DNA of 63,825 bases, counting the filler, from Folioceros fuciformis (taxonomy: Eukaryota): assembly GCA_049999805.1 (NCBI GenBank). It is 31 parts of 31 records of this genome, joined end to end, with 100 filler letters (N's around TTAATTAATTAA, not from the genome) between each part and the next. Parts side by side here need not be neighbours in the genome. Positions count along the whole stretch, not along the records: positions 22,098 to 23,954 come from JBNGIO010002431.1; positions 24,055 to 25,963 come from JBNGIO010002432.1; positions 26,064 to 27,388 come from JBNGIO010002433.1; positions 27,489 to 28,604 come from JBNGIO010002434.1; positions 28,705 to 30,255 come from JBNGIO010002435.1; positions 30,356 to 31,543 come from JBNGIO010002436.1; positions 31,644 to 34,788 come from JBNGIO010002437.1; positions 34,889 to 36,190 come from JBNGIO010002438.1; 23 more parts are not named here. One strand, 5' to 3'. The position numbers were made by a program, and so were the translations under genes. How positions within the stretch are numbered: the first letter of the stretch is position 1; each line of letters begins with the position of its first letter. Shown here in pieces: positions 22,266-54,481 of this stretch. The notes beneath the pieces are model-generated. The model was not told where the DNA came from. It saw only the letters and a list, made by a program, of their open reading frames with translations, and made no database searches.

Positions 22266-23779
22266 CTCTGCTTCCTTCTGCCCCAGCATGCTCAACCAGG
22301 TCAGTGCCCTGGCAACTTGGTCCAACATATCTGCTTATGCCCGCACCATGGCCGTAGCCAGGCCTGGCAAATCCACCTGCTGTGGTTTGCCCCCATAAGC
22401 CATCCTTCTGTCTAAAATTTGCCTCCCCAGCAGCATGCGCACCCTGGCCAAATCCTCCTCCTACAGCCTGGTCACTAGAGGAACACTCTTGAAAATCCCT
22501 TCCCATCCTGAAAAGGGTTCTCCCTCCTGCACTTGCCCTAACTCACCCGCCACCTCAGCTGGGCCTGCTTCCTCTCTTGGCACTTTTTCCTGAGGTGCCT
22601 CCAGTGCTGTGTCGGCCAGCTTCTGGACGACTTCCTATTGCGCTGATTTGCTTGTCACTCTGGCAACTCGCCCACCAACCTTCCTCTTCTTGGCAGGGGT
22701 CTTCCGCCCTGCTCCTGCCTTCCGCTTCCTACTGGTCGGGGCTTCCTCCTCTGAGCTCCCTATGGCCACCGATTCCCAACTGCAGGAGTTGGTTTCTTCC
22801 TTTAGCTCCTCCGGCTTCCACTTCACCTCTCGGACCGGCTTCCACATGTGCAAGGAGGCAACAACTTCGATCTCGGGTAAGATGTTAGCGTGACAATACA
22901 AATGAACAAGGAATGGCGAGATCATCGATGGGCGGGGAGTGGGGGAGGTCAAGTTCTGCCTCTCCTCATTCAGTTGGTCATATAGGATTTTCCCCCAATC
23001 AACCCGACTGCCCTTGACCACCTCGTGTAGGAATAAAAGCATGTGGTCAGATAGGTAGTCCTGCTTCTGGTTCTGTAGGAAGCACCGGAGCCACCTTGCC
23101 AGCCCCATGAGTTGGGCTATTGCCATCTCCCGTGCCAACCAACCATTGGCTTCTCTCCCTATCCCTGCCTTGAACAGCGTCGCCGCTGCTCCTGTGGTGC
23201 TGCGCTTCTTCAACGACTCAAGGACCAGTCCTCCTGCCTCCTCCTGGTTGCGCCCATACACCGTTTGCACCATGTCAACACTCCAATCCTGGGGATTTCC
23301 TCTTATTCCTTTCTCCTTCGCCAGGCTTCTCAGGCGCCGAGCACACTCCTACACCAGGGCAGGAGCTGCGTGGTTCCATCGCAGGGCCATGAACTCGAGG
23401 CCTAGCTCTTCCACCAGCCCTCCGGCTTTGGCCCTCCAGTGGTCCATATTCGACCAGAGAGCGACCTCAACATGAGGCACAGGGACCTGCCCCTCGTTCC
23501 TGGCCATGCCCGCTGGCACCAGTTCTGCAGCGACTCTCTCCTTCTTCATCTTCCTCTATTTCCTCTTTGTCCCGTTCGTCCCCACTTGGTTAGTTGACGC
23601 CTACGCTGTCGTTGTCTTGCTCAGAAGCCGCTACATTGGAAAAAATGCGTCTCCCGCTCACATCTCGTCCACCACTTCTGCTCCCCGACTTCTCGGTTGC
23701 GCTCCCTTTTTGAAATCATGTCTGGACCCTCATGATCCTTACTTAGGGTTTTTTCCCCTGCCTGGTCATTCTGGTTCCG
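22266..23779 (-). mobile_element. ORF-X repeat family, N-terminal half, bounded by nested LTR termini
   Basis: Reads W.NMDHWR..AGGL, QDYLSDHMLLFLHEVVKGSRVDWGKILY and SMISPFLVHLY. An LTR end (..gcctccaca) sits at 22265 and an LTR start (tgtgaacc) at 23780. Confidence 0.85.
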
Positions 23780-24324
23780 TGTGAACCTCCAAAGTTTGGG
23801 GTAGTAGTTTGTTTTGGTTGAAAAAGGGTTGATAGTGGTATGGTTTGGTTTTCTTTTTCAACTTATTTTCCCTAATTTTCCTTGATTTTCTGGTCATTTT
23901 TCCTATTTTTCTTTGTGCTAATTAGGTTAATTGACCAGGAAATAGTTGGTTTGGNNNNNNNNNNNNNNNNNNNNNNNNNNNNNNNNNNNNNNNNNNNNTT
24001 AATTAATTAANNNNNNNNNNNNNNNNNNNNNNNNNNNNNNNNNNNNNNNNNNNNGAAAAAGAAAACCAAACCATACCACTCTTAACCCTTTTTCAACCAA
24101 AACAAACTACTACCCCGAACTTTGGAGGTTCACATCCTCCTAGAGGATCTCCACCTTATTACTTGTGGGCAAGCAGGTGTGGTATCCCTACCAGGCACCC
24201 ACTCACATATATCGCGGCCACAATAATCCCACGGTAGTTGTAGGCTTCCTCATAATCGCTCCCCACTAAGCCTGGTTAGCTACTCCTATCATTCCCCTAC
24301 AATAGTCAACCCTCCCAACCACGT

Positions 24325-24775
24325 ACCTACCAATCCTGCCACACGTCCAGTGAGTAGGTAGGCACCATTCCTTCACTTGGAAGGGCCCCAGTACCTCCCC
24401 CTACCGATTTCTACCTCCCAATCACGTTCCTACCAATCCTGCAACACATCCAGTCAGTAGGTTGCGGCACCATTCCTTGACTTGGAAGGGCCCTAGTACC
24501 TCCCCTACCGATTTCTACCTCCCTACACTCAATACCTTTCCCTCACAAGGCTCCCTACAACACCTTCCTCAACCCACAATCTAGCTGCTCATCTCCCTAC
24601 GCCCAACGACCAAGTTTTCCTCCGAGCCTACTCCGCTCCCTCCAACTGTGTTTATCACTCACCTTCGACATTCCACCTTCCTTAGCGCATACCTTCAACA
24701 CGTCCAATCGGTAGGAAGGCACCATTCCTTCACTTGGAAGGGCCCTAGTACCTTCCCCTACCGATTTCTAACTAC
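24325..24775. repeat. Three ~95-bp direct repeats in a repeat family also present inverted at ~17090-17430
   Basis: The core ggcaccattccttcacttggaagggccc.agtacc..ccctaccgatttcta occurs at ~24361, ~24466 and ~24718. Confidence 0.75.
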
Positions 24776-25963: not shown

Positions 25964-26063
25964 NNNNNNNNNNNNNNNNNNNNNNNNNNNNNNNNNNNNN
26001 NNNNNNNTTAATTAATTAANNNNNNNNNNNNNNNNNNNNNNNNNNNNNNNNNNNNNNNNNNNN

Positions 26064-27388
26064 GCTGCCATCACCTGATCCTGTGGCTCCTCGGGTCTTG
26101 TCTCACCCTGACCTTGCTCCTCCAGCCTTTGGTCCTTGATTCCCTGGACAGCTGGTTCTTGTTTTGCCTCCTGCTGACTTGTCTGCTCCAGGGTGGTCCC
26201 CCCTTCCTCCTGATCAGCCCCCATGCTCACACTTTGTCCTCTGGTCCTTTTCCTCCTGGCAGGAGTTTTCTTTTGTGGCACCATCCTCTTCCTGGGCTTG
26301 ACGGGGGTTTCCTCCTGCGAGCTATTCCCACTGTCAGCTTCCCAACTGCTAGAGGCAGCCCTTGCTGGCTCAGCGGGCTTCCACTTCACATCGCGAACTA
26401 GCTTCCACAGGTGCAGCGAGGCCAGCCTTTCTAGCTCAGTGACCAGGTTAGCGTAACTGTACACATGGATTAGAAACGGGGAAATCATAGAAGGTTCAGG
26501 GGTGGGTCGGATCAGGTTCTGCCTCTCCTCATCCATCCAGGTGTATAAAATCCTCCCCCAGTCGATCCTGGTGCCCTTCACTACTTCATGCACAAACAGG
26601 AGCATATGATCAGACAGATAATCCTGTTTGCGTACCTGGAAGAAGCTCAGGAACCACCTGGCCAATCGCAACAGCTGGGGACTTGCCATGTCGCGCACCA
26701 GCCACCCGTTCGCTTCCTTTCTCGTGCCTGCCTTGAGCAGCGTTTCCCCGGCTCCCGTTCCGCCACGCCTCTTCAAGGACTCCAGCACTAGTCCCCCTTC
26801 CTCCTGTTGGTCGCGCCCGTAGACCCTCCTTATCAACTCCAGGTTCCATTCCTGGGGTCTGCCTCTGATCCCCTCCTCGCGTACAGGCTCTATTAGCCTC
26901 AGGGCGCACTCCTTGACCAGCTGGGGTGCTGCATGGTTCCACTTCTGGGTCATAAAAGTCAGACCTAGCTTTGCCACCAACTTTCCTGCCCTAACCCTCC
27001 AGTGCTCCATATTTGGCCACAGGAGTAGGTCGATTCGAGGGACAGGAGGTCCCCCCTCCTGTCTAGAGGCTGCTGCTCCAGGGATCAGTTCAGGCCGCGA
27101 CCTCATCCTGGCTGTCCTCCTCCCCTCACGCTCGGGCTCGGAACTCTTCTGTCCTGGTCACGCTCTTGCTCTTCCTCTGTTCGCCCAGCTCTCTCCACCG
27201 CTCGCGCCTTGGAGGTCTCCCACTCCCCTGTGCCTGCTCAATCCTCACGCCCTACGCCGTCTGCCTCGTCGTCCTGGCGCTTTCTCCTCCTTCAGCCGCT
27301 TCACGCTTCAAGTTACTCCCGCTCCCCGCGCTTTCGGATGGTGGACAAAGCTCCCCTTTCTCTAGGGTTTTTATGCCCTGCCTGCTTT
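26064..27388 (-). mobile_element. ORF-X repeat family; uninterrupted N-terminal ORF (27106 to contig end, ~347 aa)
   Basis: The frame MRSRPELIPG...IDWGRILY...SPFLIHVY...KPRKRMVPQKKTPARRKR is open with no stop before the gap. Confidence 0.9.
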
Positions 27389-30355: not shown

Positions 30356-31500
30356 CTGTATACATTCTGCCCGTCTTAACAGTCGTCAAATCACTTCCAC
30401 TCCGCTTCACTTCCTGCTTCCACTCCTTCTGGCTTCCTTTTCGCATTCGCTCTTACCCACTACTCGGCCACTCGCTCCTCCTCCTTCTCACACACGCGCA
30501 CCCTCGCGCTCCCTCTTTCTCCGGTTCTTTCGTCTTCTTTCTCAGCAATGCCCCTCCTGGGCTCCTATGAACGTTGAGGAATGGTGAGGTACCGGAGCTA
30601 AGGGAAGAGGAATCCCTTCCACTCCGAACTCGCGGATTCGGCTCCGTCACCCACACCAACCACGTGACCACTTTGAGGATAGCTGGGGAGTTTCTCTCCC
30701 ACTCGGCGAGGCACCTCCTCCTGATTCGTCCCCGGACCAGATCACGGAGCGCCCACCACCTACACCCGCACCCTAGGTTGCTACGTGCGCTCGCTTGCCT
30801 AGACCTCCCGTCCAGCAACGGCCATCGCTAGGTCCCTGCAGGGTCGACTATCCGGCTGGTTCTTGCTTCTTTCTTAGGCCTTCAAACCGGCCTCTTGTAC
30901 ACGGTGATGGCGGTTTTCCCGCCATAAACTCTGTCAGGCAGGGGAGCTGCGCTCTTAAATTTTGAGCGACTTGGGTCCAAATAAAACACACTAAAAAAAA
31001 AACTAATCTAGCCTGCATTTACTATCACCCTGTCCCACGCCGCTGACGGCTTCCTCCTAGCCTTCACACGCCACCCCTCGCTGCTCCTCCTCTCGCTCTT
31101 CTTCCTCTCCATTGGTCCGGCAGATCCTCCCACAGGATCTCCACATCACTGCTGCTACTGCTGGGCCTGGTTGGTGGCGCAGGTGGGTCCCACCACTGTG
31201 GTCCACCACCCCTCCTTCTTCTCTAGTTGCTGAGGACAGCCACAGGCTCCCGCTCTACCCAGCGCTGGGCCTCCTCTTTCGTCAATTCCTCCAGAACTGC
31301 CTCCGCATAGCAGTGGGGCAGGACTGTCACCCACCATCTGTAGTGGTAGAGTCCCAGGCGCGTCCTCAGTTGTAGGACGTAGCCCCGCGTCCCTCCTGTG
31401 CCCGTATGTACATACAGAAACAGCTTCAGAACTCTGGCCCCTTCTACATACAAGCCTGGCACATAGGAGGCCTCCTCCTCATACTGCAGCACAATCCGAC
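30356..31500 (-). mobile_element. ORF-X family, C-terminal domain plus 3' non-coding region
   Basis: Reads RIVLQYEEEASYVPGLYVEGARVLKLF and is cut by an LTR terminus at 31501. Confidence 0.85.
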
Positions 31501-31857
31501 TGTGGAGGCAAAACCCCGGGCACTGATTGCCGACGGGTTCCACNNNNNNNNNNNNNNNNNNNNNNNNNNNNNNNNNNNNNNNNNNNNTTAATTAATTAAN
31601 NNNNNNNNNNNNNNNNNNNNNNNNNNNNNNNNNNNNNNNNNNNGGCCAGTATAAAACCCTAGGGAGATGGGGGACTTAGTCGGTATTCGAGCACGAGCGT
31701 GACTGCGAGTCGGGGAGCGGGAGCGGAAGTAGCAGTGGAGCGCAACCTCTACGAGGAGCAGGCGCAGCTGCAGCGGAACGGAGCGGAAGGAGGACGACGG
31801 GCGATCCACGGGTGCAAGAGAGCAGCGGCAGTTACAACGAGTAGGTGATCAGGCAGG

Positions 31858-34295
31858 ATGAGGACTATCATGGCACCACTGCCAGGACTAGCTGCGACTA
31901 GAGAGGAGGAGGGACCTCCTATCCTGAGGATCGACATGGCCTACTGGCCAAATATGGAACACTGGAGGGTCAGAGCCGGAGGGCTGGCCGAAGAGCTAGG
32001 CCTCGGGTTCATGACCCAGAGGTGGAATCATGTTGCGCCGCGGTTGGTTAGGGAGTGCGCCCTGAGATTGAGGGTGCCAGTCCGCGAGGAAGGGATTAGA
32101 GGCAGACCCCAGGACTAGAACCTGGAGCTAATCAGGTGTGTGTATGGGCGCGACCAGGGGGAAGAAGGAGGACTCATGCTGGAGTCCATGAAGAAGCGCA
32201 GCACTGCAGCAGCTATTGTGGCATTGTTCAAGACAGGAACGAGTCGAGAGGCCAACGAATGGCTAATCCGCGACATGGCCAACCCTCAACTGATGGGTCT
32301 GGTGAGATGAATTTTGAGCTTCCTGCAGGTTTGCAAGCAAGACTACCTCTCCGACCAAATGCTTCTGTTTGTGCACGAGGTCGTGAAGGGTAGTAAGGTG
32401 GATTGGGGAAAAATTTTGTATGAGAGGATGGACGAGGAGAGGCTGAATCTGACCCTACCTTCTCCTCGACCTTCGATGATTTCCCCATTCCTCATGCATA
32501 TTTATTGCAATGCTAACCTTCTGCCTGAACTTGAGGTAGTTGCCTCTTTGCACATGTGGAGGCCGCTGAGGGAGGTTAAGTGGAAACTCGCAGAGCCAGA
32601 GGGAGCCGCCTCCAGCAGCTGGGAGTCGAGAGGCGCGGACAGTTCAAAAGAGGAGACCCACACCAAGCAGAAGAGGAAGGCGGGGACAGGGAAGAGGACT
32701 CCTGCCAAAAGGAGACGGATTAGCGGACAGGTCACCAGGAGGGGAAGTGGGTCAGCACCATAGGAAGCAACCCCGGAACAGGCTAAACAGGAACAGGAGG
32801 TTGTCCAGGAGCCGGCAGAGTAGGGTCAGGCCGAGGAAGAGCTGGAGGCACCTCAAGAGCAGGTGCCAGAAATGGAGGTGGCCCCACCTGAGGTGATGAG
32901 CGAATTAGGGCACGCTCCGGAACAGGAACCCTTTCAGGGATGGGAAGAAGTTTTTAAAAGGATTCCTCTGATGGATAGGCTGCAGGCAGGGAACCTGGAG
33001 AGGTTGAAGGAGTTGCTGGGAGGCAGATCACGAATAGGGGAATGGCCCCTGTGGAGTCACAAGAGGTGGATTTGCCGGGACTGACCACATTAATGGTACA
33101 GGCTCAAGCGGATCTGCTGGACCAGGTGGCTAGGGCGCTGACCTGGCTGAGTTTTTTTTTTTTTTTTGAGGCTGAGGCCCGAAGCAAGGAGGCGGAAGCG
33201 CGAGGGAAGGAAGCCGAAGCCTGGAGGCAGTTGGCGGAGTCCGAGATGGCACGGCGACTCCTGGAAGAGAGGCAGCAGGTCCTGAAGCGAGGGCAAGGCG
33301 CAAGTGGAGGAAGAGGCACACCAGGCAAGGGCAGAAATTCAAGTGCTGAAGGAGCAGCAGGAGTCGCTCCTAGCTCAGCTGAGGGAAGCCCATGGAACTA
33401 ACTTGGAGATGCAACAGGAGGTAGCCAAGGCACAGGAGCAGAAAGCGGCCTTGGTGGAGCAGGCCTAGAAGCTGGCTGACAGGTACAAGTGAGAACGGGA
33501 CGAGGCCAAATAATGGGTGAAGGGGAAGGGCAAGACTCGACGAGGTAGCCGAGCGAGAACGGAGGTAGTCGAAGAGACTACCGGTAGAGGAGAGACAACG
33601 CCGGTAGCGGAAGCCCCGACCCCTATAGCCGAAGAGGTGGTAGTGGAGGCGCCTGCGACTAGACGTTCTGGAAGGGCAATTCGCGCCAGAAGGACTGAGT
33701 AGGGAGGAGCAGTAGCTGGGGGAATGGAGAAACCTCCAGCACTCCAGGAGAACAGAGGGCAGACAGCCCGAGGTAGCCCAAGGGAGGAAGGGGTAAGCAC
33801 TTCCTTTGCAACAGAGGGTCGGGTTGTGCTGCAGTATGAGGAGGAGGCCTCTTATGCACTAGGCCTCTATGTGGAAGGAGCCCGAGTATTGAAAGTGTTT
33901 TTATATGTGCGTATGGGCTTAGGAGGGATGTGGGGCTACGTCCTGCAAATGAGGATCCGCAGGGGGTCTTACTACTACCGCTGGCGGGTGTGGGGACTGC
34001 CTCACTGCTATTCCGAAGCAATCCTGGAGGAGCTGACAGATGAGGAGGAGCAGCATTGGGTAGAGTGGGAACCCGTCCTCATCTCCAGCAATCGGCGACG
34101 GAGGGAGGAGAGGAGTTCCCCGCGACGGGACCCACCTCCGCCGCTGCAGCGAGGTCCAACAGCAGCAGCAGTGAGGTGGAGGTTCTTTGGGAGGATCTGC
34201 CCGACCAACAGCGGGGTAGAAGGGCCAGAGGCGGGCCAGTGAGGGCACGAGCGCGACGGTTAGGAGGAAGGCGACCGCGGCGAGGAGAGAGGTGA
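31858..34295 (+). pseudogene. Full-length ORF-X copy (~800 codons) with stops and frameshifts
   Basis: All ORF-X domains are colinear. Preceded by TATAAAACCCTAGGG at ~31650. Confidence 0.8.
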
Positions 34296-36816
34296 TAGTA
34301 AATGCATCCTAGGCTAGGTTTTTTTTAGGTTGATTTTGCTTGGATGTAAGCCGCTCAGAAATTAAGAGCGCTGACTGACCCATGACAAACTTTATGGCAG
34401 AAGGGACCGCCACTATCGTGTACAAGAGGCCGGTTTGGTGCCTCAGAAAATTAGCAAAAACCAGCCCGACATTCCAATGTTGTAGAAGCCTAGCGATGGC
34501 TGTTGTTGGGCAGGGAGGTTCAAGCAAGCGAGTGCACGTAGCGTTCTAAGGGTGTGGCGTGCATGTGGTGGTTGCTCCATGACTGAGGTTTCGAGGACAA
34601 ATCGGGAGGAGGAGCCTCGCTGAGTGGGAGTTGCGCTCCCTAGCTATCCCCGTGACTGTCACGCAAAGTGGTGAGAGTGTTGGAGGCTGAATCGGTGAGT
34701 TTGGAGTGGAAGAGGGTAACCCTTCCCTTAGCCTCTAGTGATTCCTGTTGAGATGTCACCCCCGCCATGCTCAAAGGAGGTTAAAACANNNNNNNNNNNN
34801 NNNNNNNNNNNNNNNNNNNNNNNNNNNNNNNNTTAATTAATTAANNNNNNNNNNNNNNNNNNNNNNNNNNNNNNNNNNNNNNNNNNNNACTCCGCGCGCT
34901 TCTGGCACATCACCCTGTAACAGTCCTCTCTACTCTCCAACCTTGCGCACGCCCTCCTTATCGTTTCTTGGCAGCTCTGTGACCTTTTCGACCTCTTGGA
35001 CTGCAGGCGGAGTGCTTCTTGCAGACTTCATATTACAGGTTGGGAGTGTGACTTCGAAGAAGTCACACTCCCAAGCTTTTCTAAAGCACCTCAAACTTCA
35101 ACAAGGCTATATGTCCTTCATATAATCGAACATTCTTTTGATAGTAACAAGTTTTAAGATATCGATCTGATGATGCTCTGTGCTACGCCATTGCAACGCT
35201 TTCCTGTTCACTAACGTGTACAAACGCTGATTGACAACACAGAACCTTTGATTCAATTGTTCAATTCGCTACAAGCTTCTAAGTTCTATCACACATTGAA
35301 AATCACTCAGTGCGCCACCGCTCATCAAGCTTTCTAAGCGAACTATCAAAAGAATGTTCGATCATTCTTCCTTTGTCCCTATATGCCTAAAACATACCGT
35401 TACTAACCACCTGAATGGTCATTGTTAAACCATTATCAACTGTCTACAAAGTTATCCATCAAAAACCCTACTCTTCAACCGTTCCTTCGCGAGAACTTTT
35501 GCCTTCTAACTGTCTCTTTAGTCAAAACGTAAGGGATTTACCCTCTATACCAGCGTGTTCGTCTCAAGCAAACAGCCTTTGCATTTGCGACCTGCACAGA
35601 AAGTTCTCACAGATGCAAAACTCTAATAGACTTTCTAAGTCATGACACCTGATTACCGTTGCCAAGGTATAAATTTTGTGTTTGAGCCAGCTGATGCAGG
35701 TTGTGAGAAATCAAGAGGAACAGACTGACAGAGTTCGTGAAACTTTACTTGGGAGTTGATAGGGCAGCCTATTGCTTTGAACTTGAAGTGGGCCAGCTGT
35801 ATATGTACTAGGTAGTCGTGTTCCCTAAGTGTGGTACTGTTGAGTGTAACTTCGTTGTGAGGTGGCTAACCCAAGATTATGACCTTGTCCAGTCATTATG
35901 ATACTTAACCTAGCAGCCTACTCCACTTTGTTGGGGCTACCACAGCCTTCGGAGACGGCAAGTGGTGAAGAAATGTTTGAAAAAGGAGAGGAAGCGTGAA
36001 TTCAGCTGAGGTGGCTAGCAGCTGCTCCAGTACGTAGTGTTAGAAGCCCGTAGGGTTTAAGCAACACATCTAGTTTGTATTCGAGGTATATTATAGGTTG
36101 TCTCGAGATGAATTATCTTTCCAACGAATAGGCCTAAGTTTATATAAGTGTGTAAGGACTACCTGCTATGAATGAACATGTCCAAGGACTNNNNNNNNNN
36201 NNNNNNNNNNNNNNNNNNNNNNNNNNNNNNNNNNTTAATTAATTAANNNNNNNNNNNNNNNNNNNNNNNNNNNNNNNNNNNNNNNNNNNNGGTATAAATA
36301 CCCCCTTGAGCTCCCTTGTATTGTGTGACTCTATTGTGAGGGTGTGACCTATGTTTCTCCTCCTCCTTGCCTCCTCCTCCCTTCTCCTTCACCATGTAGC
36401 TCCTTGATCATTCCTTTAAGGTGTCTATATATGTACCCCCACCTGGAAAATAAGAAATAGGAAATGGGGTAGGGGCTTAGGTAGTTGTGGAATTAGGCAA
36501 AAAATCGGAGGGTGATGACTGGGAGACGATAGCCAGTTGGGCGACCGTCGTGGAATGGAAACCGGCGGTAGCCCAACCGGTGGTAGTGGAACGGGAACGG
36601 CAGCATAAAACCCCAGGGTGACTCAAGGGAGGACCTGGGTAGTAATCGAGGCAGAAAATTTTGCAAGTTGGAGCAGGAGCGGGAGTACCCGCGAAGCGCG
36701 ACGACGGCCGGAGGGGAGTAGAAGCTTAGGCAGCACAGCAGAGCGAGCGGAGAGCACCGGCGACCACATGTGCAGGAGGGCAGCCGGGTATGGATTACGA
36801 GGAGGAATCAGGCAGG

Positions 36817-39448: not shown

Positions 39449-39765
39449 TTTTTTTTAGATTGTTTTTGCTTGGACCTAAGCCGCTCAGAATTTAAGAGCG
39501 CTGACTGACTCCTGACAGACTTTATGGTAGAAAGATTGCCACTACCGTGTACAAGAGGCCAGTTTGAGGCCTCGGAAAAATCAGTAAGGAACCAGCCAGA
39601 CATTCCGACATTGTGAAAGCCTAGCGATGGCCGTTGTTGGATAGAAGGTCCTGGCAAGCGAGCGGNNNNNNNNNNNNNNNNNNNNNNNNNNNNNNNNNNN
39701 NNNNNNNNNTTAATTAATTAANNNNNNNNNNNNNNNNNNNNNNNNNNNNNNNNNNNNNNNNNNNN

Positions 39766-41477
39766 GTAGTGCGGTAGTCCACGGGACTACCGGTAGTCGG
39801 GTAGCCGACGGGGCTACTGGCAGCCCAGCAAGGCCTAGGATAGCTGAAGCACCAACCCTGGAAACGAAGGAGGAAGCAGTAGCGGCGCTTGCCCCTAGGC
39901 GCTCTAGGAGGGTGACCCGTACCAGGAGGATAGAGCCGGAGGAGGCAACAGCTGGGCAGGCAGAGAACCTTCAGGTGCCCCAGCAGGAGGGGGAGCAGGC
40001 AACCCGAGGTAGCCCAAGGGAGGACGGGGTAAGCACCTCTGTTATGACAGAAGGACGAATTGTGCTGCAGTATGAGGAGGAGGCCTCCTATGTGCCAGGC
40101 GTGTATGTAGAAGCCGCCAGAGTTCTGAAGCTGTTTCTGTATGTACGTATGGGCACCAGAGGGACGCGGGGCTACGGCCTACAATTGAGGACGCGCCTAG
40201 GACTCTACCACTACAGCTGGTGGGTGACAGGACTACCCCACTGCTATGCGAAGGCAGTTCTGGAGGAACTGACAGAAGAGGAGGCCTAGCGCTGGGTAGA
40301 ACGGGGGCCTGTGGCTGTCCTCAACAACCAGAGAAGGAGGAGGAGTGGTGGACCACAGCGGCGGGACCCACTTGCGCCGCCAGCCAGGTCCAGCAGTAGC
40401 AGCAGTGATGTGGAGATCTTTTGGGAGGATTTTCGGACCAAGGTAGGGGCAGAAGAGCGAGAAGAGGGGCAGCAAGGGGTGACACTCGAAGGCCAGGAGG
40501 ATGCCGCTAGTGGCGTGGGAAAGGGCGATAGTAAATGCAGGTTAGAATAGGATTTTTTTAGCGTGCTTTATTTGGACCTAAGTCGCTCAGAATTTAAGAG
40601 CGCAGCTCCCCTGCCTGACAGACTTTATGGTGGAAAAAACCGTCATCACCGTGTACAAGAGGTTGGTTTTAAGGCTTAAGAAATCAGCAAGAAGCAGCCG
40701 AACAGTCGACCTTGCAGGGACCTAGCGATGGCCGTTGCTGGACAGGAGGTCCAGGCAAGCGAGTGCACGTAGCAACCTGGGGTGCGAGTGTAGGTGGTGG
40801 GCGCTCCGTGATCAGGTTCGGGGACGAATCAGGAGGAGGAGCCATGCCGAGTGGGAGAGAAGCTCCCTAGCTATGCTCGAGGTGGTCACGTGGGGTGGTG
40901 CGGGTGTCGGAGCCGAATCCGCGAGTGCGGAGTGAAAGGGACTCCTCTTCCCTTAGCTCCGGTACCTCACCATTCCTCAATGTTAATAGGAGCCCAAGAG
41001 GGGCATCGCTGAGAAAGAAGACTGAAGAACTAAAGAAAGGAGAGCGCGGGAGTGCGCGTGTGTGAGAAGGAGGAGGAGCGAGTGGCTGAGTAATGGGTAA
41101 GAGCGAATGCGAAAACAAAGCCAGAAGGAGTGGAGCAGGAAGTGAACCGGAGTGGAAGTGATTCGATGACTGTTAAGATGGGCAGAATGTATACAGCAAA
41201 CTGGTGAGTGGGGTAAGAGAGAACAAAGTCGGGGAAACCCCGGAGGCAAGGTAGGTAATGAGTTGCAACGAGACGTGGTGTGTATGTGTGACTGGTCGCG
41301 ATGAGACTGGAGAGGCTGTGAAGAAGGTGAATTGAGACTGCAGGGGGTGTACCTAAGGTGTGAGATCACACAAGTGGAAGGCGTCCAACAGATTACTGCT
41401 GTTCATGTGTGCGTGAGTTTATTTCTGAGGTGAGTGAGGCGGTTTTGTGGTGAACCAAGGAAGGGAAGCGCAAAAGG
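39766..41477 (+). mobile_element. ORF-X family, C-terminus plus 3' region
   Basis: Contains the EGRIVLQYEEEASY domain; the 3' region matches 48790-49700. Confidence 0.85.
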
Positions 41478-44541: not shown

Positions 44542-45445
44542 GCCCACCACCTACACCCGCACCCCAGGTTGCTACGTGCGCTCGCTTGCCTGGACCTCCC
44601 ATCCAGCAACGGCCATCGCTAGGTCCCTGCAGGGTCGACTGTCCGGCTGGTTCTTGCTTCTTTCTTAGGCCTTCAAACCGGCCTCTTGTACACGGTGATG
44701 GCGGTTTTCCCGCCATAAAGTCTGTTAGGCAGGGGAGGTGCGCTCTTAAATTCTGAGCGACTTGGGTCCAAATAAAGCACACTAAAAAAAAACTAATCTA
44801 GCCTGCATTTACTATCGCCCTGTCCCACGCCTCTGACGGCTTCCTCCTGGCCTTCGCACGTCACCCCTCGCTGCTCCTCCTCTTGCTCTTCTGCCTCTCC
44901 GTTGGTCCGGCAGATCCTCCCAGAGGATCTCCACATCATTGCTGCTACTGCTGGGCCTGGCTAGCGGCGCAGGTGGGTCCCGCCATTGTGGTCCACCACC
45001 CCTCCTCCTTCTCTGGTTGCTGAGGACAGCCACAGGCTCCCGTTCTACCCAGCGCTGGGCCTCCTCTTCTGTCAGTTCCCCCAGAACTGCCTCCGCATAG
45101 TAGTGGGGCAGCCCTGTCACCCACCATCTGTAGTGGTAGAGTCCCAGGCGCATCCTTAGTTGTAGGACATAGCCCCGCGTCCCTCCTATGCCCATACGTA
45201 CATACATAAACAGCTTCAGAACTCTGGCCCCTTCTACATACAGGCCTGGCACATAGGAGGCCTCCTCCTCATACTGCAGCACAATCCGACCTTCTGTCAT
45301 AACAAAGGTGCTTACCCCACCCTCCCTTGGGCTACGGGTTGCCTGCTCCCCCCTCCTTCTGGGGTACATGAAGGTTCTCTGCCTGCCCAGCTGTTGCCTC
45401 CTCCGGCTCTGTTCTCCTGGTACGGGCCACCCTCCTAGAGCGCCT
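44542..45445 (-). mobile_element. ORF-X family C-terminus, interrupted by the 325-bp-type LTR at 45446
   Basis: The 185-aa ORF at 44812-45369 has an intact C-terminal domain and an Arg-rich tail. Confidence 0.85.
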
Positions 45446-48273: not shown

Positions 48274-49845
48274 GGGTAAGCACCTCTGTTATGACAGAAG
48301 GTCGGATTGTGCTGCAGTATGAGGAGGAGGCCTCTTATGTGCCAGGCCTGTATGTAGAAGGGGCCAGAGTTGTGAAGCTGTTTCTGTATGTACGTATGGG
48401 CACAGGAGGGACGCAGGCCTATAGTTGAGGACGCGCCTGGGACTCTACCACTACAGTAGGTGGGTGACAGGACTGCCCCACTGCTATGCGGAGGCAGTTC
48501 TGGAGGAACTGACGGAAGAGGAGGCCCAGCGCTGGGTAGAACAGGGGCCTGTGGCTGTCCTCAGCAACCAGAGAAGGAGGAGGAGTGGTGGACCACAGCG
48601 GCGGGACCCACTTGCGCCGCCAGCCAGGTCCAGCAGTAGCAGCAGTGATGTGGAGATCCTCTAGGAGGATCTACCGGACCAATAGAGGGGCAGAAGAGCG
48701 AGAGGAGGGGCAGCAAGGGGTGACACGCGAAGGCTAGGAGGAAGCCGCCAGCGGCGTGGGAAAGGGTGATAGTAAATGTAGGCTAGAATAGGATTTTTTA
48801 GCGTGCTTTATTTGGACCTAAGTTGCTCAGAATTTAAGAGCGCAGCTCCCCTGCCTGACAGACTTTATGGCGGAAAAAACCGCCATCACCGTGTACAAGA
48901 GGCCGGTTTGAAGGCCTAAGGAATCAGCAAGAACCAACCGAACAGTCGACCTTGCAAGGACCTAGCGATGGCCGTTGCTGGACAGGAGGTCCAGGCAAGC
49001 GAGCGCACGTAGTAACCTGGGGTGCGGGTGTAGGTGGTGGGCGCTCCGTGATCAAGCCCAAGGACGAATCGGGAGGAGGAGCGTCGCCGAGTGGGAGAGA
49101 AGCTACCCAGCTATCCTCGAGGTGGTTACGTGGAGTGGTGCGGGTGTCGGATCCGAATCCGCGAGTTTGGAGTGGAAGGGACTCCTCTTCCCTTAGCCCC
49201 GGTACCTCACCATTCCTCAACGTTAATAGGAGCCCAGGAGGGGGCATCGCTGAGAAAGAAGACTGAAGAACCGGAGAAAGGAGAGTGCGGGAGTGCGCGT
49301 GTGTGAGAAGGAGAAGGAGCGAGTGGCCGAGTAGTGGGTAAGAGCGAATGCGAAAAGGAAGCCAGAAGGAGTGGAGCAGAAAGTGAAGTGGAGTGGAAGT
49401 GAGTCGACGATTGTTAAGACGGGCAAAATGTATACAGAGAATTGGTGAGTGGGGTAAGAGAGAACAAAGCCGGGGAAACCCCGGAGGCGAGGCGGGTAAT
49501 GTGTGTGGGGTGCAACGAGACGTGGTGTGTATGTGTGACTGGTCGCGATGAGACTGGAGAGGCTGTGAAGAAGCTGAATTGAGACCGCAGAGGGTGTATC
49601 TAAGGTGTGAGATCACGCGGGTGGAAGGTGTTCAATAGATTGCTGCTATTCATGTGTGCGTGCGCTTGTTTCTGAGGTGAGTGAGGCGGTTTTGTGGTGA
49701 ACCATGGAAGGGAAGCGCAAAAGGGGATGCGTGGGCAGGAGGTAATAAGTCGGGTAGGAACCACCCGGTGGGAGAGAAAACCCTAGAGAGAGGGAAGTGA
49801 GAGAGAGAGGGAGAGTGGGACCCACGAGCGGTAGACCGTCAGGCG
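48274..49845 (+). mobile_element. ORF-X family, C-terminus plus the longest 3' region
   Basis: Nucleotide homology to 40027-41477. Confidence 0.85.
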
Positions 49846-51349: not shown

Positions 51350-51449
51350 NNNNNNNNNNNNNNNNNNNNNNNNNNNNNNNNNNNNNNNNNNNNTTAATTA
51401 ATTAANNNNNNNNNNNNNNNNNNNNNNNNNNNNNNNNNNNNNNNNNNNN

Positions 51450-53067
51450 GGCTACCCGACTACTGGTAGTCCCATGGACTACCGGACTACCGGTAGCCCC
51501 CTCGACTACCGTTCCCTTGGTTCAGCTACCGGTAGCCCCGTCGGCTACCCGACTACTGGTAGTCCCATGGACTACCGGACTACCGGTAGCCCCCTCGACT
51601 ACCGTTCCCTTGGTTCAGTTACCGGTAGCCCCGTCGGTACTGGGGTCGTCATTTGACTCGGGCGCCCAGCCTTGCTCTTCCTCTTCACTCTCTCTCTGGC
51701 CTCATCCCGCTCCCGTTTGTATCTGTTCGCTAACTTCTGAGCCTGGTCCACAGCGGCTATCTCCATCTCCTGTGCCTTGGCCATTTCCTGTTGCAACTCC
51801 AGGTTAGTCTCGTGAGCCTCCCTCACCTGAGCTAGCAGGGCCTCCTGTTGCTCTTTCAGGGCCTACACTTCCGCCCTCGCCTCGCGCGCCTCTTCCTCGG
51901 CTTAAGCCTTCTCCCTGTCCAGAACCCGCTGCTTCCCCTCCAATAGTTGCCGCGCTGTCTCTGACTCCGCCAGTTGCCTTCTTACTTCAACCTCTCGCTC
52001 ACGAGCCTCCTCTTCCTTCACCTGAGCCTTGGTTTCTCGCTTGGCTTATACACTTAACCAGGTCAGGGCCCTAGCAGCCTGATCCAGGAGGTATGCTTGG
52101 GCTTGTACCATTGCAGCAGTCAATCCGGGTAAGTCCACCTCCTGCACCCCTCCAGTGCCCATTCCTCTCGCCGTGATTTGTCTGTCCAGGAGTTCTCGCA
52201 ACTTGTCCAGGTCCCCCACCTGCAACCTGTCTCTCTGAGGCCTGCACCTGAAAATGTCCTCCCAACATGAAAAACCCTCCTGTGCTGTAACGCGCCCTAA
52301 CTTATCCTCCTGTCTGTGTCGGCTGTCATCACCTGATCCCGTGGCTCCTCGGGTCTTATCTCACCCTGACCTTGTTCCTCCAACCTTCGGTCCTCGATTC
52401 CCTGGACAGCTGGTTCTTGTTCTTCCTCCTGCTGGCCTGTCTGCTCCAGGGCTGTCCCCCCTTCCTCCTGATCAGCCCCCATGCTCACACCTGGTCCTCT
52501 GATCCTTTTCCTCCTGGTGGGAACCTTCTTCTGTGGGGCCATCCTCTTCCTGGGCTTGGCTGGGGTTTCCTCTTGCGAGCTATCCCCACTGTCAGCTTCC
52601 CAACTGCTAGAGGCAGCCCTTACTGGCTCAGCGGGCTTCCACTTCACATCACGAAGTGGCTTCCACAGGTGCAGCGAGGCCAGCCTTTCTAGCTTAGTGA
52701 CCACGTTAGCGTAACTGTACACGTGGATTACAAACGGGGAAATCATAGAAGGTTCAGGGGTGGGTCGGATCAGGTTCTGCCTCTCCTCATCCATCCGGGT
52801 GTATAAAATCCTTCCTCAGTCGATCTTGGTGCCCTTCACTACTTCATGAACAAACAGGAGCATCTGATCGGACAGATAATCCTGTTTGCGTACCCGGAAG
52901 AAGCTCAGGACCCACCTGGCCAATCCCAACAGTTGGGGACTTGCCATGTCGTGCCCCAGCCACCCGTTCGCTTCCTTTCTCGTGCCTGCCTTGAGCAGTG
53001 TTTCCGCCGCTCCTGTTCCGCCACACCTCTTTAGGGACTCCAGCACCAGCCCCCCTTCCTCCTGTTG
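51450..53067 (-). mobile_element. ORF-X family, central part
   Basis: Closely matches 26064-26810. Includes the coiled-coil segment and a 93-bp tandem duplication at 51450-51635. Confidence 0.85.
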
Positions 53068-53167
53068 NNNNNNNNNNNNNNNNNNNNNNNNNNNNNNNNN
53101 NNNNNNNNNNNTTAATTAATTAANNNNNNNNNNNNNNNNNNNNNNNNNNNNNNNNNNNNNNNNNNNN

Positions 53168-54481
53168 CCCGCACCCCAGGTTGCTACGTGCGCTCGCTTG
53201 CCTGGACCTCTTGTCCAGCAACGCCTATCGCTAGGTCCCTGCAAGGTCGACTCTTCGGCTGGTTCTTGCTGATTTCTTAGGCCTTCAAACCGGCCTCTTG
53301 TACACGGTGATGGTGGCTTTTTCCGCCATAAAGTCTATCAAGCAGGGGAGCTGCGCTCTTAAATTCTGAGCAACTTAGGTCCAAATAAAGCACGCTAAAA
53401 AAAATCCTATTCTAGCCTGCATTTACTATCGCCCTTTCCCACGCCGCTAGCGGCTTCCTCCTGGCCTTCGCGCGTCACCCCTTGCTGCTCCTCCTCTCGC
53501 TCTTCTGCCCCTTCGTTGGTCTGGTAGATCCTCCCAGAGGATCTCCACATCACTGCTGCTACTGCTGGACCTGGCTAGCGGCGTAGGTGGGTCCCGCCGC
53601 TGTGGTCCACCACTCCTCCTCCTTCTCTGGTTGCTGAGGACAGCCACAGGCCCCCATTCTACCCAGCGCTGGGCCTCCTCTTCCATCAGTTCCTCCAGAA
53701 CTGCCTCCGCATAGCAGTGGCGCAGTCCTGTCACCCACCAGCTGTAGTGGTTGAGTCCCAGGCGCGTCCTCCGTAGCCCCGCGTCCCTCCTGTGCCCATA
53801 CATACATACAGAAACAGCTTCAGAACCCTGGCCCCTTCTACATACAGGCCTGGCACATAGGAGGCCTCCTCCTCATACTATAGCACAATCCGACCTTCTG
53901 TCATAACAGAGGTGCTTACCCCGTCCTCCCTTGGGCTACCTCGGGTTGCCTGCTCCCCCTCCTGCTAGGGTACCTGAAGGTTGTCTACCTGCCCAACTGT
54001 TGCCTCCTCCGGCTCTGTCCTCCTGGTATGAGTCACCCTCCTGGAGCGCCTAGGGGCAGGTGCCCCTACTGCTTCCTCCTTCGTTTCCAGGGTTGATTCT
54101 TAGCTATCCTGGGCCTTGCTGGGCCACCGGTAGTCTCGTGGACTATCGAGCTATCGGTAGTCCCGTGGACTACCAAACTACCGGTAGTCCCCTCGACTAC
54201 CGTTCCCCTGGTTCGGCTATCGGTAGCCCCTTCTGCTACCGGGGTCGCCGACTGACTCGGACGCCCAGCCTTGCCCTTCCCCTTCACTCTCTCTCTGGCC
54301 TCATCCCGCTCCCGCTTGTATCTGTCAGCCAACTTTTGAGCCTGCTCCACAGCGGCTATCTCCATCTCCTGTGCCTTGGCCATTTCCTGTTGCATCTCCA
54401 GGTTAGTCTCGTGAGCCTCCCTCACCTGAGCTAACAGGGTCCCCTGTTGCTCTTTCAGCGCCTACACTTCAGCCCTCGCCT
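53168..54481 (-). mobile_element. ORF-X family, coiled-coil to C-terminus
   Basis: Contains REAHETNLEMQQEMAKAQEME, the repeat block and the C-terminal domain. Confidence 0.85.

What the first reader, a model, noticed from the sequence alone, without database searches (positions are those of the whole stretch)
22266..54481. Abundant repeat family encoding an uncharacterised ~800-aa multidomain protein (ORF-X)
Seen: ten fragments on both strands in ten separate contigs. Two of them (31858-34295 and 36817-39448) span the whole ORF, and one has ~347 uninterrupted codons. The domain order is a ~240-aa Trp-rich globular domain (..DYLSD.MLLFVHEVVKG..IDWG.ILY..M....SPFL.H.Y), a Ser/acidic patch with a bipartite-NLS-like basic stretch (KRKAGTGKRTPAKRRR), an E/Q linker, a coiled coil, a variable repeat block, a second globular domain and an Arg-rich tail. 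I see no gag, RT, integrase or DDE motif in any copy. Known: some Tat/Retand/Athila-type LTR elements carry accessory, often antisense, ORFs with plant-mobile-domain or Transposase_28-like and SMC-like coiled-coil regions. Inference: this is a lineage-specific TE accessory nuclear protein, possibly for anti-silencing or targeting, and the best candidate for an undescribed system here.
Basis: partly seen in the sequence, partly recalled or inferred. Interest (0 to 1): 0.75.

Follow-up and report, generated by a model that had tools for sequence, protein, structure and literature searches.

The report
Decayed plant transposon accessory-protein gene family
A gene for a roughly 800-residue, probably nuclear protein is scattered in ten broken copies through this plant genome fragment; it was once kept intact by selection and belongs to a poorly understood class of extra genes that plant retrotransposons carry.

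Summary
Ten of the window's 31 contigs carry pieces of one repeat (about 28% of the non-N bases) in four subfamilies. Two copies span the whole ORF of about 810-880 codons, and one has 347 open codons counted from the conserved Met. Every copy is broken, mostly by C-to-T type stops. Between subfamilies dN/dS is 0.09-0.17 in the N domain and 0.26-0.40 in the C domain, so this was a real, selected gene.

The N domain is a sub-threshold relative of Pfam Transposase_32 (21 bits against a cutoff of 45). An exhaustive search of 1.84 billion proteins gave only 7 weak relatives; the named ones are liverwort hypothetical proteins. They share the order N domain, acidic patch, basic NLS-like motif, coiled coil.

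In two metagenome contigs a relative lies directly after a Ty3/gypsy integrase on the same strand. In other contigs, and for ORF-X itself, no gag, pol or LTR is seen nearby.

Verdict: a new, distant variant of the known but functionally uncharacterised plant retrotransposon extra ORFs. The carrier element and the function remain open.

The parts
31714..34788 (+). Copy A (its own subfamily): 5' leader, whole ORF-X (31858-34295, about 812 codons, two frameshifts, in-frame stops) and about 490 bp of 3' flank
36598..39665 (+). Copy B (its own subfamily): 5' leader, whole ORF-X (36817-39448, about 877 codons, two frameshifts, in-frame stops mostly TAG) and about 215 bp of 3' flank
22263..23779 (-). 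Copy S4 (most divergent subfamily): 5' leader, N domain, NLS-like motif and start of the helical region. It is cut on both sides by termini of another abundant element.
26064..27388 (-). S1 subfamily piece: 5' leader and N-terminal 347 codons open from the Met at 27106; the longest intact stretch
51450..53067 (-). S1 piece: N domain (from about residue 100), NLS-like motif, linker, helical region, start of the 9-aa repeat block
53168..54481 (-). S1 piece: end of the helical region, 9-aa repeat block, C domain, tail, start of the 3' flank
39766..41477 (+). S1 piece: repeat block, C domain, tail and about 930 bp of 3' flank. The contig ends on a purine-rich tract.
44542..45445 (-). S1 piece: C domain (45031-45318), Arg-rich tail (44815-44907) and 3' flank. 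The 181 codons at 44815-45357 are open.
48274..49845 (+). S1 piece: C-terminal part and about 1.05 kb of 3' flank, with a second copy of the 21-nt flank motif at 49777-49797
30356..31500 (-). S1 piece: C domain, tail and 3' flank; cut at 31501 by the terminus of another element
26369..27106 (-). N-terminal globular domain (about 245 aa, Trp-rich, modelled as mostly helical) in the best-preserved copy. It is a distant relative of Pfam Transposase_32 and of liverwort and metagenome TE proteins.
32671..32718 (+). Bipartite NLS-like basic motif (KR-x10-KRRR) in copy A. Equivalent motifs lie at 26240-26296(-), 22680-22730(-), 37630-37677(+) and 52498-52554(-).
51638..52306 (-). Conserved helical module of about 75 aa followed by a charged, coiled-coil-like stretch of about 150 aa (one frame in this S1 copy, three stops)
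38535..38678 (+). In-frame tandem block. TRF gives a 27-bp (9-aa) period at 39766-39817, 51450-51637 and 54126-54201, and a 39-bp period here in copy B. No array is reported in the corresponding part of copy A.
33790..34077 (+). C-terminal domain (96 aa) in copy A; also at 38921-39208(+) and 45031-45318(-). No family or homologue found and no usable fold model.
27351..27371 (-). Conserved 5'-flank motif (TATA-like run followed by a telobox-like AAACCCTAG), 205-265 bp upstream of the ATG. Equivalents lie at 31653(+), 36607(+) and 23744-23752(-). It is a candidate own promoter or cis-element.

Best explanation
ORF-X is the decayed remains of a transposable-element accessory gene.

The protein had about 810-880 residues, built from:
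- a helical N-terminal domain that is a distant branch of the plant-transposon domain superfamily around Pfam Transposase_32;
- an acidic patch followed by a bipartite basic motif, probably a nuclear import signal;
- a helical, coiled-coil-like region, probably for self-association;
- a variable 9-residue repeat block;
- a small C-terminal domain and an Arg-rich tail.

The most likely carrier is a Ty3/gypsy-type LTR retrotransposon, or a non-autonomous derivative of one, in which the gene is an extra ORF with its own upstream TATA/telobox-like element.

Shown here: it is multi-copy; it was under purifying selection while the four subfamilies diverged; all ten copies in the window are now inactivated, mostly by transition-type mutations, as expected of methylated repeats; and relatives in other plants lie directly downstream of a gypsy integrase.

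Inferred: the protein enters the nucleus and binds nucleic acid or chromatin of its own element through the N domain, as the DNA-binding anti-silencing protein VANC21 does, to favour that element's expression or integration.

My odds: TE-borne accessory gene about 0.75; carried by an LTR retrotransposon about 0.55; DNA-binding counter-silencing role about 0.25.
For: Repeat family:
- Present in 10 of 31 contigs and four subfamilies. DNA identity is 66-78% between subfamilies and 88-94% within S1.

Coding constraint:
- N domain: dN/dS 0.09-0.17 in the 7 between-subfamily pairs whose dS could be computed; 2 further pairs were saturated (pS up to 0.77).
- C domain: dN/dS 0.26-0.40 in the 7 between-subfamily pairs.
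- The start Met is conserved in 3 subfamilies.

Decay:
- 30 in-frame stops: 22 TAG, 5 TGA, 3 TAA. Of the 27 with a homologous codon, 17 are single transitions from CAG, TGG, CGA or CAA.
- Within S1, transitions to transversions are 419:139, and CpG observed/expected is 0.46-0.74.

N-domain kinship:
- Transposase_32 is the top hit for 4 of 5 copies, best E 3.1e-4, covering profile positions 3-169 of 177.
- A profile search of 1,835,955,588 proteins gave 7 hits at E <= 1e-3, best 6.8e-10. The named ones are Riccia and Marchantia hypothetical proteins.
- hhalign of ORF-X copies against the metagenome/bryophyte subfamily gives probability 98.5%, E 1.5e-15 over 209 columns, running on through the acidic patch and the KRK motif.

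Context of relatives:
- In L006, an Integrase_H2C2 + rve ORF is followed 268 bp later, on the same strand, by an intact 853-aa ORF with the domain.
- In L007, an integrase C-terminus 88% identical to L006's is followed by an intact 1082-aa ORF.
- The L006 ORF hits ORF-X directly by tblastn: E 1.7e-5, 24% identity over 244 aa.

Literature (passages read with the find function):
- A sunflower Athila 3' extra ORF has partial similarity to PF20167 and carries a predicted NLS (PMC11728184).
- Grande gene23 protein is nuclear and has its own promoter, PvRetro13 ORF2 has an SMC coiled-coil domain, and Retand ORF4 has Transposase_28 (PMC7264820).

Fold lead:
- Independently, the language-model look-alikes included PMD and DUF1985 clusters at 0.85-0.86.
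- A preprint reports structural similarity between PMD-C and the DUF1985 domain of VANC (10.1101/2024.09.27.615353, passages).

Cis-element:
- A TATA/telobox-like motif lies 205-265 bp upstream of the ATG in all 4 subfamilies.
- Its 21-nt form occurs 3 times in the window, against 0 in 100 shuffles. One of these is in the S1 3' flank.
Against: - No LTR, PBS, PPT, gag, pol or transposase was found next to any ORF-X copy. 0 of 21 six-frame translations of up to 526 bp upstream and 1,056 bp downstream hit Pfam at E <= 0.1. tblastn with the L006 and L007 integrases hits only unrelated contigs. So ORF-X is not placed directly after an integrase as in L006 and L007.
- In the P0013-like relatives (L001, L003, L004) homology starts sharply about 235 bp upstream of the ATG with unrelated flanks, including a jacalin ORF, and no repeat of the leader follows within 590 bp. 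These units stand alone, and ORF-X may too.
- The Transposase_32 match is far below Pfam's cutoff (21.1 against 45 bits). PMD and DUF1985 give no Pfam hit at E <= 1.
- The relatives themselves hit no Pfam family at E <= 0.01: 0 of 7.
- The helical and C-terminal parts have no detectable homologue.
- Nuclear localisation, self-association and DNA binding are untested.
Confidence: 0.6

Rival explanations
1. ORF-X is the single gene of a stand-alone mobile or non-autonomous unit of about 4 kb or more. It would not be an internal ORF of an autonomous LTR retrotransposon. It could be a gene of a DNA transposon, since PMD-C and VANC-type proteins are encoded by DNA transposons, and it would be moved in trans.
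For: - Homology among the four subfamilies starts within about 30 bp upstream of the TATA/telobox-like motif. Two contigs break there, and one copy continues into unrelated sequence.
- No pol or gag lies within the flanks.
- The P0013-like relatives show the same layout: a sharp 5' boundary about 235 bp before the ATG with unrelated flanks.
- The best fold match is VANC21, a protein of the DNA transposon VANDAL21 (PMC5735166, passages).
- The 21-nt flank motif recurs about 990 bp after the stop in S1.
Against: - No TIR, transposase or target-site duplication was seen.
- The contigs are too short (1-3 kb) to show either end of the unit, and the 3' end was never reached.
- The only relatives with informative neighbours (L006, L007) are inside gypsy elements.
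- The two copies of the flank motif share little beyond 21 nt, so they are not a pair of LTRs or TIRs.
Confidence: 0.2
2. ORF-X is a host (domesticated) gene family related to TE proteins, like the Arabidopsis PMD genes MAIN and MAIL1. The ten pieces would be its pseudogenes.
For: - Strong purifying selection between subfamilies.
- A conserved upstream promoter-like element with a telobox-like core, as in many host genes (10.1101/2024.09.27.615353, passages).
- The liverwort relatives are annotated as ordinary hypothetical proteins.
- L001 has a jacalin-domain ORF next to a relative.
Against: - All 10 copies seen are broken.
- The copies make up about 28% of the non-N bases of the window.
- They show a transition-biased decay pattern typical of silenced repeats.
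- They are themselves cut by insertions of another repeat.
- Subfamily structure with about 90% identical members is typical of TE bursts.
Confidence: 0.08
3. ORF-X is a divergent structural (Gag-like or ORF1p-like) nucleic-acid-binding protein of an unrecognised retroelement. The coiled coil would drive oligomerisation and the Arg-rich tail would bind RNA.
For: - The N domain is modelled as mostly helical.
- There is a coiled-coil-like stretch and an Arg-rich C-terminal tail.
- In the P0013-like units the ORF is the first and only ORF after a short leader.
Against: - No gag, zinc-knuckle, RRM or capsid family was hit.
- No RT or endonuclease lies within 1.05 kb downstream.
- In L006 and L007 the homologue lies after the integrase, not at the gag position.
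- A capsid chain appeared only at Foldseek E = 4.
Confidence: 0.05

Closest known systems
Extra ORFs (aORF/eORF) of plant Ty3/gypsy retrotransposons of the Athila, Retand/Tat and Ogre lineages. Examples are the sunflower Athila 3' aORF with partial Transposase_32 similarity, Retand ORF4 with Transposase_28, PvRetro13 ORF2 with an SMC coiled coil, and Grande gene23 (nuclear, own promoter).
   Same: - A large extra ORF found across the copies of a repeat family.
- An N-terminal transposon-type domain; Transposase_32 is the only Pfam family hit.
- A basic NLS-like motif and a coiled-coil-like region.
- A candidate promoter of its own.
- Relatives sit in the pol-to-3'-LTR position.
- Function unknown in all of them (PMC7264820, PMC11728184, PMC6317226, passages).
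   Different: - The score is far below the Pfam cutoff, and identity to the nearest proteins anywhere is only about 21-25%.
- Its own C-terminal domain, 9-aa repeat block and Arg-rich tail have no homologue.
- The nearest relatives are in liverworts and metagenome contigs, not seed plants.
- Its position in an LTR element is not shown.
VANC21, the DUF1985-domain anti-silencing protein of the Arabidopsis VANDAL21 DNA transposon (PDB 9lnk), and the structurally similar plant mobile domain (PMD) proteins
   Same: - A TE-encoded accessory protein.
- PMD and DUF1985 clusters are among the language-model look-alikes.
- One liverwort relative carries a UniRef name with 'plant mobile domain'.
- A short conserved motif in the non-coding flanks recalls VANC's target motifs in the non-coding DNA of its own element (PMC5735166, passages).
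   Different: - No sequence similarity was detectable: Pfam PMD and DUF1985 are not hit at E <= 1, and no PDB chain is hit.
- The structural score is within the noise range stated by the tool, and the model is of low confidence.
- VANC is carried by a Mutator-like DNA transposon.
- DNA binding and loss of methylation are untested for ORF-X.
Liverwort hypothetical proteins KAL3698783.1 and KAL3691606.1 (Riccia sorocarpa) and OAE21223.1 (Marchantia polymorpha), and the unnamed metagenome proteins P0009 and P0013
   Same: - A homologous N domain (hhalign 98.5%).
- The same order: N domain, acidic patch, KKRK-type motif, coiled coil.
   Different: - 21-25% identity only.
- The helical and C-terminal regions are not alignable.
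- None has been characterised.

Membership tests
Pfam PF20167 Transposase_32 (putative plant transposon protein) | Whole-protein score at or above Pfam's gathering cutoff (45 bits) | tested here: not met
   Best score 21.1 bits, E 3.1e-4. 4 of 5 copies match at E <= 1.
Pfam PF20167 Transposase_32 (putative plant transposon protein) | Match covers the whole domain model rather than a fragment | tested here: met
   Profile positions 3-169 of 177 are aligned to residues 47-210 of the S1 copy.
Plant LTR-retrotransposon extra ORFs (aORF/eORF) | Lies in the internal region of an LTR retrotransposon, 5' of gag or between pol and the 3' LTR | tested here: inconclusive
   For ORF-X, no pol, gag, LTR, PBS or PPT was found within 526 bp upstream or 1,056 bp downstream; the contigs are too short. 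For the relatives L006 and L007, the ORF follows a gypsy integrase on the same strand.
Plant LTR-retrotransposon extra ORFs (aORF/eORF) | Conserved across copies and subfamilies of the element, not a one-off transduced fragment | tested here: met
   Four subfamilies keep the frame and the domains, with dN/dS 0.09-0.40.
Plant mobile domain (Pfam PF10536 PMD) | Sequence match to the PMD model | tested here: not met
   No PMD hit at E <= 1 in 5 copies. The only pointers are an Atlas neighbour cluster (score 0.86, PMD on 18% of members) and a UniRef name on one relative.
VANC / DUF1985 (Pfam PF09331) anti-silencing proteins | Sequence match to DUF1985 | tested here: not met
   No DUF1985 hit at E <= 1 in 5 copies. 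The PDB profile searches do not find 9lnk.
VANC / DUF1985 (Pfam PF09331) anti-silencing proteins | Shared fold with solved VANC21 | tested here: inconclusive
VANC / DUF1985 (Pfam PF09331) anti-silencing proteins | Sequence-specific binding to motifs in its own element, and loss of silencing marks | not testable with these tools
   Only a conserved flank motif was seen.
Canonical TE enzymes and structural proteins (gag, RT, integrase, DDE transposase) | Any Pfam match to these families within ORF-X | tested here: not met
   None in the N domain, middle region, C domain or flanks.

The most novel reading that the evidence does not exclude
ORF-X and its bryophyte relatives would be the retrotransposon counterpart of VANC. 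The helical N domain of the PMD/DUF1985 fold class would bind a short motif in the element's own non-coding flanks, with the conserved TATA/telobox-like 21-mer as the candidate site. The protein would be multimerised by the coiled coil, and it would shield the element from Polycomb- or methylation-based silencing. That would make TE-encoded, sequence-specific counter-silencing an ancient land-plant trait shared by DNA transposons and LTR retrotransposons.
Probability: 0.18. Interest if true: 0.75.

Novelty: new variant of a known kind. Interest (0 to 1): 0.42.

Why it matters
Extra ORFs of plant retrotransposons are widespread, yet their functions have not been determined (PMC7264820, passages). 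This family adds a well-constrained, multi-subfamily example from outside the seed-plant examples described in the papers I read. It comes with relatives in liverworts and with a defined architecture: N domain, NLS-like motif, coiled coil.

If the weak fold link to VANC21 and PMD is real, it would connect the Transposase_32-type retrotransposon ORFs to the only TE accessory protein class with a demonstrated counter-silencing mechanism. It would also give a concrete, testable DNA motif.

As it stands, this is a useful annotation and a hypothesis, not a discovery of a new system.

Tried and rejected
- Word-indexed protein searches: near-length search with the 364-aa ORF gave none. The N-domain alignment against longer proteins gave only 3 unnamed relatives. 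The C-domain alignment against longer proteins gave none.
- PDB sequence profiles: none at E <= 1. At E <= 10 only two chance hits, ribosomal protein L14 and EF-Tu.
- Foldseek of the N-domain model against the PDB: nothing at E <= 0.001.
- AlphaFold of the C domain: mean pLDDT 34, unusable, so no fold search was run on it.
- ESM Atlas for the C domain: no usable hit.
- Whole-genome search: no genome is held for this window. Earlier findings of the scan: nothing by place, sequence or words.
- Homodimer prediction of a 66-residue coiled-coil piece: no verdict (score 0.24, mark 0.32). This is evidence neither way.
- hhalign of the helical middle region against the relatives: probability 10.6%, no homology shown.
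- A PBS upstream of the ATG: no conserved TGG-type stretch across the four leaders.
- LTR reading of the two copies of the 21-nt motif: similarity beyond the 21 nt is far below the roughly 90% expected for LTRs of one subfamily, so rejected as a simple LTR pair.
- Tandem head-to-tail units: copy B's upstream 300 bp does not match any 3' flank.
- The sequence cutting copy S4 on both sides (end ...CCTCCACA on one side, start TGTGAACC... on the other) was considered as ORF-X's own LTRs. It was rejected because the same termini abut unrelated sequence in other contigs, and no PBS or PPT adjoins them.
- A conserved antisense ORF over the C domain: the long antisense frames lie at different positions in different copies, so they are taken as by-products of purine skew.

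Full report
WHAT THE WINDOW IS. The 63,825-base window is 31 short contigs (one of 14 kb, the rest 1-3.4 kb) joined by N44 + TTAATTAATTAA + N44 spacers. It comes from a land plant. An intact 504-codon gene at 10331-11845 carries the plant-type aspartyl-protease domains TAXi_N and TAXi_C. The other contigs hold Ty1/copia gag, integrase and RT pieces, one Ty3/gypsy integrase piece, and exons of an amine oxidase and a prolyl oligopeptidase. No whole genome is held for this window.

blastn with the two long copies finds the family in exactly ten contigs, on both strands, between 22266 and 54481. This is about 17,250 of 61,185 non-N bases.

The copies fall into four subfamilies:
- Seven overlapping fragments, 88-94% identical to one another (S1).
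- Copy A (31644-34788).
- Copy B (36291-39665).
- A fourth, most divergent copy, S4 (22098-23954).

Between subfamilies DNA identity is 66-78%, and protein identity in the N-terminal part is 52-64%.

A and B span the whole reading frame (31858-34295 and 36817-39448, about 812 and 877 codons). Each has two frameshifts and several in-frame stops. The S1 fragment 26066-27157(-) is open for 364 codons, 347 of them from a Met that is conserved in S1, A and B.

- A Trp-rich N domain of about 245 aa (10 Trp) with the quoted motifs.
- A Ser/acidic patch.
- A KR-x10-KRRR type basic motif, present in all four subfamilies.
- An E/Q-rich linker.
- A conserved helical module of about 75 aa and about 150 aa of charged helix.
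- A tandem block of 27-bp (9-aa) units whose copy number differs between copies.
- A 96-aa C domain and an Arg-rich tail.

No gag, RT, integrase or DDE family is found in any part of any copy. None is found in 21 six-frame translations of the flanks either.

IT WAS A REAL GENE AND IS NOW DEAD. Nei-Gojobori estimates were made on codon alignments, skipping stop codons.
- N domain, between subfamilies: dN/dS 0.09-0.17 in the 7 pairs where dS could be computed. In 2 further pairs synonymous sites were saturated.
- C domain, between subfamilies: dN/dS 0.26-0.40 in 7 pairs.
- Within S1: 0.33-0.61 in 4 pairs, as expected if part of that divergence arose after insertion.

All ten pieces carry stops or frameshifts. 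Of 30 in-frame stops, 22 are TAG, 5 TGA and 3 TAA. Where a homologous codon is available (27 cases), 17 are single transitions from CAG, TGG, CGA or CAA. Within S1, transitions outnumber transversions 419 to 139, and CpG observed/expected is 0.46-0.74 against 0.89 in the aspartyl-protease gene. That is the pattern expected of methylated, silenced repeats (inference from general knowledge).

Copies are also cut by another abundant element. Its termini (start TGTGAACC..., end ...CCTCCACA) abut four different sequences each.

WHAT THE N DOMAIN IS RELATED TO. Against Pfam, Transposase_32 (PF20167, 'putative plant transposon protein') is the top-scoring family and the only one below E 0.1. It matches 4 of 5 copies, best E 3.1e-4 and 21.1 bits. 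That is far below the 45-bit cutoff, but the match covers profile positions 3-169 of 177.

A profile of the five copies was scored against all 1,835,955,588 representative proteins. Only 7 proteins reached E <= 1e-3, the best at 6.8e-10 and none at 1e-10. So the ORF-X family itself is not in the public protein collections.

The named hits are hypothetical proteins of the liverworts Riccia sorocarpa and Marchantia polymorpha. One bears the UniRef name 'Aminotransferase-like plant mobile domain-containing protein'. None of the 7 hits any Pfam family at E <= 0.01. One gives Transposase_32 at E 0.04.

In the alignment the relatives share blocks such as LG.GF..W.W, RG.P..W, EEGG, NGY, K(V/I)(D/N)WG and SPFL.HLY. 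An acidic stretch and a KKRK-type motif follow at the same place, and several relatives continue with a coiled coil.

Profile-profile comparison of the ORF-X copies with a subfamily of these relatives gives probability 98.5%, E 1.5e-15 over 209 columns. The helical middle region is not detectably homologous (probability 10.6%). The C domain has no relative at all.

WHERE THE RELATIVES SIT. A scan of metagenome contigs with that subfamily returned 7 loci.

In L006, an ORF with Integrase_H2C2 and rve domains (a Ty3/gypsy-type integrase) is followed 268 bp later, on the same strand, by an intact 853-codon ORF whose N-terminal part is the homologous domain.

In L007, an integrase C-terminus 88% identical to that of L006 (139 of 158 residues) is followed by an intact 1082-codon ORF. 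The two extra ORFs are only 33% identical in the domain. The arrangement has therefore been kept through substantial divergence and is a feature of the element, not a nested insertion. The L006 ORF also hits ORF-X directly by tblastn (E 1.7e-5, 24% identity over 244 residues).

This is the position (pol to 3' LTR, sense) described for Athila-type extra ORFs. The sunflower Athila 3' aORF is reported to have partial similarity to PF20167 and to carry a predicted NLS (PMC11728184, passages). [quoted passage not shown] The review PMC7264820 (passages) describes antisense extra ORFs with nuclear localisation and an own promoter (Grande gene23), an SMC coiled coil (PvRetro13 ORF2) and Transposase_28 (Retand ORF4).

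WHAT SPEAKS AGAINST A SIMPLE 'ORF BETWEEN POL AND LTR'. For ORF-X itself I could not find the carrier.
- Copy B has 526 bp upstream of the ATG with stops in all frames and no integrase similarity.
- The S1 copies have up to 1,056 bp downstream without any coding signal, and the 3' end of the repeat was never reached.
- Homology among the four subfamilies begins within about 30 bp upstream of a conserved block: a TATA-like run followed by AAACCCTAG, the telobox core. This block lies 205-265 bp before the ATG. Two contigs end there, and copy B continues into unrelated sequence.
- The closest metagenome subfamily (L001, L003, L004) shows the same picture. There is a sharp common boundary about 235 bp before the ATG with unrelated flanks (in L001 a jacalin-domain ORF), and the leader is not repeated within 590 bp downstream.

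So genes of this kind occur both inside gypsy elements and as units that look self-contained at contig scale. ORF-X may be of the second sort.

The 21-nt form of the upstream motif occurs three times in the window, against none in 100 shuffles. The third copy lies about 990 bp after the stop in an S1 3' flank, shortly after a purine-rich tract where another S1 contig ends. Similarity around it is too low for an LTR pair of one subfamily. What it marks is open: a reiterated cis-element, an old internal duplication, or the next unit.

FOLD. AlphaFold2 with the 12-row alignment gave a mostly helical model of low confidence: mean pLDDT 56, with the core around residues 117-231 at about 70-80. Foldseek against the PDB found nothing at E <= 0.001.

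I keep it as a lead for two reasons. Before that search, the language-model look-alikes had already listed PMD and DUF1985 clusters at 0.85-0.86, themselves below the 0.9 mark. [quoted passage not shown]

VANC21 binds a 9-base motif reiterated in the non-coding DNA of its own transposon and causes loss of DNA methylation there (PMC5735166, passages). There is no sequence-level link from ORF-X to PMD, DUF1985 or 9lnk.

The C-domain model was unusable (pLDDT 34).

MECHANISM, WITH ODDS. I take ORF-X to be a TE accessory gene (about 0.75), most likely of gypsy-type LTR retrotransposon origin (about 0.55). The protein would be imported into the nucleus through the bipartite basic motif and self-associate through the helical region. 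It would contact DNA or chromatin through the N domain and perhaps the Arg-rich tail.

A counter-silencing or targeting role at its own element, with the conserved flank motif as the candidate site, is the most specific reading that the data allow (about 0.2-0.25). None of its steps is shown.

Rivals are a stand-alone or DNA-transposon-borne unit (0.2), a host gene family with pseudogenes (0.08) and a Gag/ORF1p-like structural protein (0.05).

NOVELTY AND SCORE. The kind (large extra ORFs of plant retrotransposons with a transposon-type N domain, NLS and coiled coil, function unknown) is in print. This family is a distant, unannotated variant with its own C-terminal half, and it extends the class to relatives in bryophyte-grade plants.

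My literature searches turned up nothing on this family or on Transposase_32-type ORFs in bryophytes, but they were keyword searches of open-access text only. Steinbauerova et al. 2011, the main survey of such ORFs, was not available and is known to me only from reference lists.

Interest is moderate. It is a sound annotation, and the hypothesis linking retrotransposon extra ORFs to VANC/PMD-type counter-silencing is testable but weakly supported.

AN UNEXPLAINED POINT. Synonymous divergence between subfamilies is saturated in the N domain (pS 0.60-0.77) but only 0.37-0.49 in the C domain. The non-coding 3' flank is 76-84% identical, as against 68-71% in the 5' leader among A, B and S1. A mosaic history (recombination between subfamilies) or a constraint on the 3' half at the nucleic-acid level would explain it. 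I did not test either.

Noticed in passing
22098-22267 (end ...CCTCCACA), 23780-23954 (start TGTGAACC...); also 30117, 31501, 55860-55918, 24134, 57473: A second, very abundant element. Its 5' terminus (TGTGAACCTCC...) and its 3' terminus (...GGGGTTTTGCCTCCACA) each abut four different sequences, and in one place one copy is inserted into another. The TG...CA ends suggest an LTR. It cuts two ORF-X copies and probably causes many of the assembly breaks.
   Followed up: partly
49777-49797 (+), with 27351-27371 (-) and 31653-31673 (+): The 21-nt TATA/telobox-like motif of the ORF-X 5' leader recurs about 990 bp downstream of the stop in an S1 copy, about 50 bp after a purine-rich tract followed by TG, where another S1 contig ends. 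It makes 3 matches in the window against 0 in 100 shuffles.
   Followed up: partly
N domain (e.g. 26258-27106) versus C domain and 3' flank (e.g. 33751-34532): Synonymous divergence between subfamilies is saturated in the N domain (pS 0.60-0.77) but only 0.37-0.49 in the C domain. The 3' flank is better conserved (76-84%) than the 5' leader (68-71% among A, B and S1). This could reflect a mosaic history or a constraint on the 3' half.
   Followed up: partly
L001:522-760, L003 and L004 equivalents: In the P0013-like metagenome relatives the repeat unit starts sharply at TGTCGCGGCCCGC, about 235 bp before the ATG. The reverse complement of GCGGCCCGC lies just before the start codon, so the AT-rich leader is bracketed by a 9-nt inverted repeat.
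   Followed up: no
L005:409-3105 (-): A truncated relative of ORF-X abuts, on the other strand, a gypsy-type gag (zinc knuckle), protease and the start of RT. It is a nested or rearranged TE junction in a metagenome contig.
   Followed up: no
10331-11845 (+): An intact, intron-less 504-codon aspartyl protease of the plant TAXi type (TAXi_N 9e-46, TAXi_C 3e-30) in a region of about 61% G+C. It is the clearest host gene in the window.
   Followed up: no
14473-16590, 18848-20831, 45878-46474, 50910-51347: Ty1/copia fragments (Retrotran_gag_2, gag_pre-integrs, rve, RVT_2) spread over five contigs. Two contigs overlap at 90% identity (15784-16826 with 18511-20832).
   Followed up: no
57647-58528 (-): A Ty3/gypsy integrase piece (rve plus a Tf2-1-type SH3). 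It is the only gypsy pol fragment in the window, is cut by the abundant TG...CA element, and has no visible link to ORF-X.
   Followed up: partly
39766, 51450 (contig ends) and 54126-54201: Two family contigs begin exactly inside the 27-bp in-frame tandem block, so this repeat block is an assembly breakpoint and its true copy number per element is unknown.
   Followed up: no
60634-61519 (+) and 9087-9326 (+): Exon-like pieces of a flavin amine oxidase (Amino_oxidase) and of a prolyl oligopeptidase (Peptidase_S9). They are host genes with introns.
   Followed up: no
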